Below, piece after piece: positions 48,750 through 49,150 of a stretch of 64,000 bases of DNA. The notes beneath the pieces were generated by a model, which was not told where the DNA came from, made no database searches, and saw only the letters and a program-made list of their open reading frames with translations. This DNA comes from Nitrososphaerota archaeon (GTDB lineage Archaea > Thermoproteota > Nitrososphaeria > Nitrososphaerales > Nitrosopumilaceae). Position numbers and translations under genes: made by a program. The number at the start of each line of letters is the position of its first letter. Positions within the stretch are counted from its first letter, which is position 1. Where the stretch lies: NCBI GenBank assembly GCA_028867755.1, contig JAGWFT010000002.1, positions 64,001 through 128,000 of the forward strand, written 5' to 3'.

Positions 48750-49150
48750 AGTCTCAATTCACCCCGTCCCACGGACACCCCTCTTGAGACTTCGCTTTTT
48801 GTCTAATTGACGAAATCCTCGCTCACCTCTAACACCAGGATCGTAAAACTCTCTTGGTGTTTTTTTGCTTACGCAAAACCGAGGCTCACCGAGGTAGAGG
48901 TAAAATTTCGCAGTTCGTTAGCCAATTCACCCCGTCTGCTTTGCAGACACCCCTCTTGGCTATCTCTCTACTTCATCCTAACTTTGTTCGGACGGCACGA
49001 TTTCCTTCGTGCCGTTTTCCCTCTACCTCGCTTCGGACGGCTGCCGTTGGCAGCCTCTCGCCCTTCGGGCTCGCCTCGCTCGGATTTCGTAGGGGTCTCC
49101 GCTTCGCTCCGCACTCCTTCGACTTCGTTGATAGTCGTTTGGCAGGGGTT
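48750..49150. other. GC-rich, extensively base-paired noncoding segment (structured ncRNA or ssDNA origin)
   Basis: Nested perfect stems (48810-18/49082-90, 48890-900/49020-30, 48992-49000/49007-15, 49039-45/49049-55) and two covarying internal-loop hairpins. Confidence 0.75.

What the first reader, a model, noticed from the sequence alone, without database searches (positions are those of the whole stretch)
48750..49150. About 400 nt of GC-rich, multi-branched noncoding structure beside attR
Seen: nested perfect long-range stems ACGAAATCC/GGATTTCGT (48810/49082) and CGAGGTAGAGG/CCTCTACCTCG (48890/49020). These enclose the hairpins AACACCA/TGGTGTT, TTTTGC/GCAAAA, ACGGCACGA/TCGTGCCGT, GGCTGCC/GGCAGCC and GCCC-TTC-GGGC. 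CTTCG recurs many times; it reads as cUUCGg loops on the plus strand and as CGAAG or GCGAAGC (49101-49107) on the minus strand. Established: cUUCGg is a stable RNA tetraloop, d(GCGAAGC) is an exceptionally stable ssDNA mini-hairpin, and single-strand origins are hairpin-rich. Inference: either an undescribed large ncRNA or an ssDNA origin/oriT. In the excised circle it would sit just upstream of attP and the integrase.
Basis: partly seen in the sequence, partly recalled or inferred. Interest (0 to 1): 0.85.

Follow-up and report, generated by a model that had tools for sequence, protein, structure and literature searches.

The report
Hairpin-array DNA module of archaeal mobile elements
A 400-base, GC-rich, non-coding stretch at the end of a mobile element in an ammonia-oxidising archaeon is a conserved, heavily folded module whose hairpin caps look like ultra-stable DNA mini-hairpins, so it is more likely a single-stranded-DNA origin-type site than an RNA gene, though this is untested.

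Summary
Window 48745-49150 folds far better than shuffles on both strands (z about -7). The same module occurs in 15 Nitrosotalea-genus genomes (a few only as fragments) and nine metagenome contigs, with strong covariation: 50 of 87 pairs change on both sides, 0 of 500 shuffles reach this. It matches no Rfam family, plasmid, phage or IMG/VR record, is not coding and is not a dispersed repeat.

It is a backbone part of one family of integrase-bearing elements. All 11 genus genomes carrying the element's ATPase also carry it. Where both lie on one contig, it sits a few kb downstream in fixed orientation, near attR.

The CTTCG loops are not cUUCGg tetraloops. They are 3-nt loops closed by C-G, that is c[GNA]g and c[GNNA]g on the minus strand, including 24 copies of GCGAAGC in 19 copies of the module. 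These are the extraordinarily stable DNA mini-hairpin motifs known from phage and plasmid single-strand priming sites. Wobble pairs are about 1% and show no strand bias. No conserved promoter or terminator was found.

Best reading (about 0.4): a minus-strand DNA hairpin array acting as a single-strand initiation or processing origin. Main rival (about 0.27): a minus-strand structured RNA. Neither has been tested experimentally.

The parts
48745..49150 (-). Whole conserved structured module (about 405 nt). The inferred functional strand is minus.
   Evidence: Fold z-scores. Homologues. Covariation.
48751..48790 (-). Hairpin motif 1 (P1). Outer stem 48751-57/48784-90, inner stem 48766-69/48773-76. 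The internal loop is invariant and carries CACCCC boxes at 48760-65 and 48776-81.
   Evidence: In 26 instances, 92.9% of cells are paired against 71.5% in shuffles; covariation 0.472 against 0.119.
48798..48806 (.). TTTGTCTAA, first copy of a 9-nt direct repeat. The second copy is at 49149-49157. The two bracket the P2-closed domain.
   Evidence: Sequence reading. The first copy is conserved in most relatives.
48810..48818 (-). P2, 5' arm of the long-range helix that closes the core. It pairs with 49082-49090.
   Evidence: Variants ACGAAATCC/GGATTTCGT, ACGAAGTCC/GGACTTCGT, GCGAAGTCC/GGACTTCGC and ACGGC/GCCGT.
48831..48861 (-). P3 hairpin, with a conserved G.T (plus sense) at 48838/48854.
48863..48878 (-). 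P4 hairpin TTTTGC-TTAC-GCAAAA. The minus-strand loop is GTAA.
48890..48905 (-). P5/P5b, 5' arm of the second long-range helix. It pairs with 49015-49030.
   Evidence: Seven all-Watson-Crick variants; 11 of 15 pairs change on both sides.
48919..48962 (-). Hairpin motif 2 (P6), a twin of P1. CACCCC boxes at 48928-33 and 48948-53.
48992..49015 (-). P7 hairpin ACGGCACGA / TCGTGCCGT.
   Evidence: Covaries with CGCCATGA/TCATGGCG.
49039..49055 (-). P8 hairpin GGCTGCC-GTT-GGCAGCC.
   Evidence: Replaced by GCCATGC-TTC-GCATGGC in five of the 21 copies compared.
49060..49070 (-). P9 hairpin GCCC-TTC-GGGC. The minus strand reads GCCCGAAGGGC and contains CCGAAGG.
   Evidence: Stem length runs from 2 to 7 bp among relatives while the loop stays the same. 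The B-type form is the bare GCTTCGC.
49082..49090 (-). P2, 3' arm.
   Evidence: As for the P2 5' arm.
49092..49095 (.). First G-tract (plus sense), complementary to the CACCCC boxes.
   Evidence: The MFE fold pairs it with 48777-82. It does not vary, so the pairing cannot be tested by covariation.
49101..49107 (-). GCGAAGC mini-hairpin sequence on the minus strand.
   Evidence: There are 24 such copies in 19 copies of the module and none in the opposite orientation.
49119..49131 (-). Tail hairpin TCGAC-TTC-GTTGA.
   Evidence: Covaries as TTGAC/GTCAA and TCAAC/GTTGA.
49145..49148 (.). Terminal G-tract in GGCAGGGG, the conserved end of the module in both tail types.
49149..49225 (.). AT-rich block conserved in A-type copies, between the module and attR.
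49249..49262 (+). attR core. It is identical to the attL core at 37107-37120.
48254..48665 (-). RHH antitoxin (48519-48665) and ParE-like toxin (48254-48517). These are cargo genes that abut the module in A-type copies and remnants.
   Evidence: Pfam; tblastn.

Best explanation
The stretch is a cis-acting DNA module of a family of small integrative elements in the genus Nitrosotalea. It works through hairpins formed by one strand, the window's minus strand, which is antisense to the integrase and ATPase genes.

When that strand is single-stranded, or when its palindromes extrude from supercoiled DNA, it folds as follows. Two long-range helices (P2, P5) organise about ten hairpins. Most hairpins are capped by c[GNA]g or c[GNNA]g loops, which resist melting, nucleases and SSB coating.

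By analogy with primase-dependent origins and plasmid ssi/sso signals, such an array would mark the place where complementary-strand synthesis is primed. It could also be where the element's DNA is recognised for processing. Two twin hairpins with invariant, locally two-fold-symmetric internal loops (CACCCC on plus, GGGGTG on minus) are the likeliest protein-binding sites.

Shown here: the fold, its conservation and covariation, the loop bias, the linkage to the element backbone, and the fixed orientation.

Inferred only: that the active form is DNA rather than RNA, that a single-stranded stage exists, and that the function is priming or an origin.
For: (1) The structure is real and under selection. 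85.4% of cells are paired against 72.2% in shuffles. 50 of 87 pairs change on both sides. The covariation score is 0.300 against 0.134, and slid controls give 0.04-0.09. The twin motif gives 92.9% against 71.5%.

(2) Loop census in 19 published copies:
- 63 distinct hairpins of at least 5 bp, with 31 triloops and 16 tetraloops
- 25 of the 47 short loops are c[G(N)NA]g on the minus strand; none on the plus strand
- CTTCG 105 against CGAAG 7
- GCTTCGC 24 against GCGAAGC 0
Elsewhere in the window, only 3 of 198 hairpins are of this type.

(3) A bare GCTTCGC unit (minus GCGAAGC, a 2-bp stem) replaces longer hairpins at P9 and inside the twin motif in several copies. The DNA mini-hairpins GCGNAGC and GCGNNAGC are extraordinarily stable, while the RNA versions are much weaker: r(GCGAAAGC) has Tm 39 C. 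These mini-hairpins occur at the G4, St-1 and alpha3 primase sites, in RSF1010 ssiA (CCGAAGG) and in N4 hairpin promoters, and they bind SSB poorly (PMC13037366; PMC3201870).

(4) Wobble pairs are rare and show no strand bias. Intact helices hold 776 Watson-Crick, 8 G.T and 4 A.C pairs. G.T and A.C each occur at 27 positions.

(5) No promoter or terminator is conserved on either side. The upstream flanks are unrelated cargo genes in either orientation.

(6) Backbone linkage. All 11 of the 59 genus genomes that carry the 594-aa ATPase also carry the module. Where both are on one contig, the module lies a few kb downstream on the same strand. The order integrase, core operon, cargo, module, att is seen in G013, L206 and L207.

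(7) As DNA, the minus strand folds with z -8.7 against -6.1 for the plus strand.
Against: No rolling-circle Rep, relaxase, primase or SSB was recognised in the element by Pfam or PHROGs. A single-stranded stage is therefore not independently supported.

No episomal or viral copy was found.

A 280-nt multi-branched domain closed by long-range helices, invariant internal loops, and a GC island in an AT-rich genome are also typical of structured RNA.

P3 carries a conserved plus-sense G.T, which is a C.A mismatch on the minus strand.

Tail type 2 has GGA and AGAAA loops on the plus strand.

The nearest-neighbour DNA parameters hold no mini-hairpin bonus. The strand difference in z therefore does not measure the loop effect.

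The copies are few and related.
Confidence: 0.4

Rival explanations
1. A structured non-coding RNA of about 400 nt is transcribed from the minus strand, from the attR side towards the cargo genes. It would act in trans or in cis for the element, for example in regulation, as a protein scaffold, or as a replication primer in the manner of ColE1 RNA II.
For: Covarying multi-branched fold. GC island in an AT-rich genome. Unpaired positions on the minus strand are 73% purine, with A at 36%, as in many structured RNAs. The loops begin with G and end with A, and include GUAA and GCAA. TATA-like sequences exist to the right of the module. The element has no recognised Rep.
Against: Triloops outnumber tetraloops 31 to 16. 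The tetraloops are GNNA, not GNRA. 2-bp GCGAAGC units stand in for hairpins, although the RNA versions are weak (PMC13037366). G.U pairs are about 1%, with no excess over A.C. No conserved promoter or oligo-T terminator was found. There is no Rfam match even at E up to 10.
Confidence: 0.27
2. A double-stranded recognition locus. The four co-oriented CACCCC/GGGGTG boxes would be read as duplex DNA by the element's wHTH-bearing ATPase-nuclease (like the clt/TRS sites of Streptomyces TraB, or KOPS of FtsK). Alternatively they would serve as a centromere for the tubulin-like partition protein.
For: Four invariant boxes lie in one orientation. The module is strictly linked to the ATPase gene and has a fixed orientation relative to it.
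Against: Duplex recognition does not explain why about 50 base pairs covary to keep intrastrand helices, nor the strand-biased loop caps. The G014 and G331 copies keep the module with only a truncated integrase nearby; in G014 the only ATPase match is weak and on another contig, and none was found in G331.
Confidence: 0.12
3. A plus-strand RNA with UUCG-type loops, as the reader first suggested.
For: Plus-sense G.U at P3, P7 and the tail hairpin. T-runs follow the module in some copies. It runs in the same direction as the backbone genes.
Against: The loops are UUC triloops, not cUUCGg. Unpaired positions are 73% pyrimidine, with only 12% A. There is no room for a promoter, or no TATA, upstream in L204 and L206. 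A.C cells occur at as many positions as G.U cells.
Confidence: 0.05

Closest known systems
Single-strand initiation signals and primase-dependent complementary-strand origins (RSF1010 ssiA/ssiB; phage G4, St-1 and alpha3 origins)
   Same: A strand-specific, non-coding hairpin cluster on a small mobile replicon. The hairpins are capped by the same mini-hairpin motifs: CCGAAGG in ssiA, GCGAAAGC in G4, GCGTTAGC in St-1 (PMC13037366). The window's minus strand reads GCCCGAAGGGC and GCGAAGC.
   Different: There is no sequence homology. The module is three to ten times larger, with two long-range helices and twin internal-loop hairpins. The host is an archaeon. No cognate primase or Rep was identified. 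Priming has not been shown.
Single-strand origins (ssoA/U/T/W) of rolling-circle plasmids and the f1/M13 intergenic region (from general knowledge)
   Same: Non-coding, orientation-dependent, multi-hairpin regions of 150-500 nt that act only in the single-stranded form and evolve as exchangeable cassettes. The module here is likewise a mosaic of swapped sub-modules.
   Different: Those elements encode a recognisable HUH Rep and a double-strand origin. None was found here.
Phage N4 virion RNA polymerase hairpin promoters
   Same: A DNA hairpin with a 5-bp stem and a 3-nt GGA or GAA loop, extruded from duplex DNA and read by a protein (PMC13037366).
   Different: Those are single short hairpins with a dedicated polymerase. 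Here there is an array of about ten and no such polymerase.
Large structured ncRNAs carried by mobile elements (ROOL, GOLLD; from general knowledge)
   Same: Several hundred nucleotides, multi-branched, carried by integrated elements, function unknown.
   Different: No Rfam match. The loop and wobble statistics are unlike RNA.
clt/TRS loci of Streptomyces conjugative plasmids and FtsK KOPS (from general knowledge)
   Same: Co-oriented short G-rich or C-rich boxes near the gene of an FtsK/HerA-like translocase that has a wHTH.
   Different: Those act as duplex DNA and need no conserved intrastrand helices.

Membership tests
Any Rfam 15 RNA family | Covariance-model score at or above the gathering threshold | tested here: not met
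   No hit in the region at gathering thresholds. At E up to 10, only four chance-level hits of 10-20 bits.
cUUCGg RNA tetraloop hairpins | 4-nt UUCG loop closed by C-G, in register with the stem | tested here: not met
   In every hairpin the stem register leaves a 3-nt TTC loop, for example GCCC-TTC-GGGC and GTCAC-TTC-GTGAC.
DNA mini-hairpin motifs d(cGNAg), d(cGNNAg), d(GCGNAGC) | G...A loop of 3-4 nt closed by a C:G pair on one strand | tested here: met
   25 of 47 short loops on the minus strand, none on the plus strand. 24 GCGAAGC in 19 copies. The motif definition comes from PMC3201870 and PMC13037366.
DNA mini-hairpin motifs | Exceptional thermal stability of these particular sequences as DNA | not testable with these tools
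   The ViennaRNA DNA parameters give no bonus. UV melting is needed.
ssi/sso-type single-strand origin | Strand-specific, hairpin-rich, non-coding region with a fixed orientation on a mobile replicon | tested here: met
ssi/sso-type single-strand origin | The element has a single-stranded stage (RCR Rep, relaxase or ssDNA packaging) | tested here: not met
   No Rep, relaxase, primase or SSB family was found in the element's proteins. Divergent proteins cannot be excluded.
ssi/sso-type single-strand origin | Supports primer synthesis on the folded strand only | not testable with these tools
   Needs an in vitro priming assay.
MITE / dispersed repeat | Many genomic copies with terminal inverted repeats and target duplications | tested here: not met
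   Two loci in the genome by BLAST and three motif hits by covariance model. The module is always inside the element.
Protein-coding gene | A conserved reading frame | tested here: not met
   The 116-aa and 104-aa ORFs have no Pfam hit. The homologues differ by indels that are not multiples of three and by swapped hairpins.
clt/KOPS-like duplex recognition locus | Repeated co-oriented short boxes near the translocase gene | tested here: inconclusive
   Four co-oriented CACCCC boxes are present. Whether they are bound is untested.

The most novel reading that the evidence does not exclude
This is the first single-strand DNA origin or processing site recognised in a mobile element of ammonia-oxidising archaea. 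That would imply that these small Nitrosotalea elements pass through a single-stranded stage, by rolling-circle-like replication, ssDNA transfer or ssDNA packaging. It would also imply the use of an array of GNA-capped DNA mini-hairpins plus twin symmetric-loop hairpins as the recognition platform.
Probability: 0.33. Interest if true: 0.8.

Novelty: new variant of a known kind. Interest (0 to 1): 0.64.

Why it matters
No replication or transfer origin is known for any thaumarchaeal mobile element, and cis sites for archaeal DNA transfer are largely unknown.

This module is a short, synthesisable candidate site that can be defined from sequence alone. It could be used to test three things:
- how these elements replicate or move
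- which element or host protein reads it
- whether DNA mini-hairpins, so far known from bacterial phages and plasmids, are also used in archaea

If it turns out to be RNA instead, it would be a new large structured RNA class in archaeal mobile elements.

Tried and rejected
**Database searches**
- Rfam, at gathering thresholds and at permissive E-values: nothing.
- blastn against PLSDB plasmids and INPHARED phages: no match.
- IMG/VR, by motif and by the ATPase protein: nothing.
The stricter pattern on metagenomes worked.
- The covariance model of the twin hairpin, run on 151 class-level genomes, found only genus hits plus chance-level ones.

**Readings rejected**
- Coding potential.
- MITE or dispersed repeat.

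**Tests that did not decide the question**
- Conserved promoter or terminator on either strand: nothing consistent. TATA-like strings are everywhere in this AT-rich DNA.
- Deciding the strand by G.U against A.C counts: symmetric, so not decisive.
- Deciding DNA against RNA by energy models: the models lack mini-hairpin terms.
- A circular (episomal) contig: L207 is an integrated copy with its own att repeats.
- Rep, primase, relaxase or SSB in the element: none found. A PHROG 'Zot-like' hit for the ATPase (E 0.009) and a Pfam 'Phage_SSB' hit (E 0.17) are too weak to use.
- Pairing of the CACCCC loops with the two G-tracts: predicted by the MFE fold, but the columns do not vary, so there is no covariation test.

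Full report
**What is there.**
Window 48745-49150 is an intergenic GC island (0.47-0.56 against about 0.35). On its left is a divergently oriented RHH/ParE-like toxin-antitoxin pair (48254-48665, minus strand). On its right is the archaeal pheS gene (49267 onwards). Both strands fold far better than dinucleotide shuffles. As RNA, z is -7.2 (plus) and -7.4 (minus). As DNA, z is -6.1 (plus) and -8.7 (minus). Rfam has no match, even at E up to 10. The two ORFs across the region have no Pfam hit, and the homologues differ by frame-breaking indels.

**Relatives.**
- The window's own genome holds a second copy on a 925-nt contig.
- BLAST finds the module in 11 of 35 sampled genomes of the same genus. 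It finds none in 263 genomes of 26 other genera of the family.
- A second query adds more genus copies. The union of the searches is 15 genus genomes besides the window's own, three of them with only fragments; an AT-decayed copy in a sixteenth (G003) matched only weakly.
- A strict motif scan of metagenomes gave nine contigs.
- There are no matches in plasmid, phage or IMG/VR collections.
- A covariance model of the twin hairpin finds three sites in the window's own genome. Outside the genus it finds only chance-level hits in 151 class-level genomes.

The module is therefore neither a dispersed repeat nor a widespread family.

**The structure is selected.**
I placed a hand-built consensus of 87 pairs on an 18-copy MAFFT alignment of published sequences only (A3). 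The helices are P1 outer and inner, P2, P3, P4, P5, P5b, P6 outer and inner, P7, P8, P9 and a tail hairpin.

| Measure | Observed | Shuffled | Shuffles reaching observed |
|---|---|---|---|
| Cells paired | 85.4% | 72.2% | 0 of 500 |
| Pairs changed on both sides | 50 of 87 | 33.6 | 0 of 500 |
| Covariation score | 0.300 | 0.134 | 0 of 500 |

Slid controls give covariation scores of 0.04-0.09. The long-range helix P5 has seven all-Watson-Crick variants, and P2 has four.

The twin hairpin (P1 and P6, 26 instances) is 92.9% paired against 71.5% in shuffles. Its internal loops, TTCACCCC and ACACCCCTC, do not vary. The same 5'-3' word therefore sits on both sides of the loop, which makes the loop locally two-fold symmetric.

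The copies are mosaics. There are two forms of the P3/P4 region and two unrelated 3' tails, and whole hairpins are swapped between copies. A deletion form occurs in G301 and an AT-decayed mini-form in G003.

**Which strand, and RNA or DNA.**
1. The CTTCG motif is not a cUUCGg tetraloop. In register it is a 3-nt loop closed by C-G.
2. The loop census covers 19 published copies and 63 distinct hairpins of at least 5 bp. There are 31 triloops and 16 tetraloops. Of these 47 short loops, 25 read c[GNA]g or c[GNNA]g on the minus strand and none do so on the plus strand. CTTCG outnumbers CGAAG 105 to 7, and GCTTCGC outnumbers GCGAAGC 24 to 0. In the rest of the window, only 3 of 198 hairpins are of this type.
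3. A bare GCTTCGC unit (minus GCGAAGC) replaces longer hairpins at P9 and inside the twin motif in several copies. The literature states that d(GNA) triloops with a C:G closing pair, and the mini-hairpins GCGNAGC and GCGNNAGC, are extraordinarily stable as DNA. It also states that the RNA versions are much weaker, that standard parameters do not capture this, that the mini-hairpins bind SSB poorly, and that they occur at the G4, St-1 and alpha3 primase sites, in RSF1010 ssiA (CCGAAGG) and in N4 hairpin promoters (PMC3201870; PMC13037366). I confirmed that the ViennaRNA DNA parameters give no such bonus.
4. Wobble pairs are almost absent and show no strand bias. Intact helices hold 776 Watson-Crick, 8 G.T and 4 A.C pairs. 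Each class occurs at 27 positions overall. From general knowledge, natural structured RNAs usually carry several percent G.U or more, and far fewer A.C.
5. Unpaired positions are 73% pyrimidine on the plus strand, with A at only 12%. A plus-strand RNA is therefore unlikely, whichever nucleic acid is the active one.
6. I found no conserved promoter or oligo-T terminator on either side. The upstream neighbours are unrelated cargo genes in either orientation.

Taken together, these points favour the minus strand (about 0.85). They favour DNA over RNA less strongly (about 0.6).

**Context.**
The module belongs to the backbone of one family of integrative elements. In the window, the element is bounded by TTTAAAAAGTCTTT at 37107 and 49249. 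In G013, L206 and L207 the order is integrase, ATPase operon, variable cargo, module, zero to two genes, att. The cargo includes GmrSD-like genes, a RelA/SpoT fusion and RHH-ParE. G013 and L207 share the att core TAAAAAACATTAGG. All 11 of the 59 genus genomes with the 594-aa ATPase also carry the module. Where both lie on one contig, the module is 2.5-7 kb downstream on the same strand. Fragments persist next to RHH-ParE genes in genomes where no ATPase was found. No Rep, relaxase, primase or SSB was recognised in the element.

**Mechanism.**
My best reading, at about 0.4, is a minus-strand DNA hairpin array that serves as a single-strand initiation or processing origin. The twin symmetric-loop hairpins would be the protein-binding sites. 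The weak point is that no independent evidence for a single-stranded stage exists.

The rivals are:
- a minus-strand structured RNA (about 0.27)
- a duplex recognition or centromere locus built on the four co-oriented CACCCC boxes (about 0.12), which does not explain the covariation
- a plus-strand RNA (about 0.05)

**Caveats.**
The copies are few and related, and some statistics use a hand-chosen structure. Genomes G010 and G231 are unpublished. G010 contributes one P1-only remnant, one A.C example and the genus label. G231 was used only in the exploratory and in the co-occurrence tallies. It is excluded from alignments A3 and A4 and.

Noticed in passing
window 48666-48700: The palindrome ACTATG-TTATAG-CATAGT lies about 12 nt upstream of the RHH antitoxin start and overlaps a TATA-like box. 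It is conserved in A-type relatives and is a likely autoregulatory operator of the RHH-ParE pair.
   Followed up: partly
G000 contig C112 (L002:35-440, minus): A second, B-type copy of the module sits on a 925-nt contig. It is near-identical to the copy in G014 and about 80% identical to that in G331. This points to a second element, or a remnant whose repeats broke the assembly.
   Followed up: partly
L007:1440-1604 (G003): A decayed mini-version of about 165 nt. It keeps the hairpin-1 shape, the P4 hairpin and the tail, but its C-boxes have mutated to A/T. It lies next to an RHH gene.
   Followed up: partly
L075:7565-7805 (G301): A deletion variant that joins hairpin 1 directly to P7. It carries several G.T and A.C mismatches and abuts a host succinyl-CoA synthetase gene.
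   Followed up: partly
window 48798-48806 and 49149-49157: The 9-nt direct repeat TTTGTCTAA brackets the P2-closed core. GTCTAA recurs at both places in many relatives. Its meaning is unknown; it could be a binding site or a recombination scar.
   Followed up: no
window 30986-31073 (minus): Rfam calls an 88-nt tRNA here that ARAGORN misses. It is probably an intron-containing archaeal tRNA.
   Followed up: no
window 37059-37170: The listed integrase ORF starts upstream of the attL core. The real start is probably the ATG near 37170, about 20 nt after a TTTAAAAT box at about 37142.
   Followed up: partly
L205:4297-5505 (minus): A cargo gene encodes a 402-aa protein that combines a phage-integrase-family domain with a RelA/SpoT nucleotidyltransferase domain.
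   Followed up: no
L009:12749-13648, L207:10179-11057: A 292-299-aa gene with no Pfam family, 77% identical between the two elements, lies between the module and attR in B-type elements. It appears to have its own TATA box (AAGTTATAGG).
   Followed up: partly
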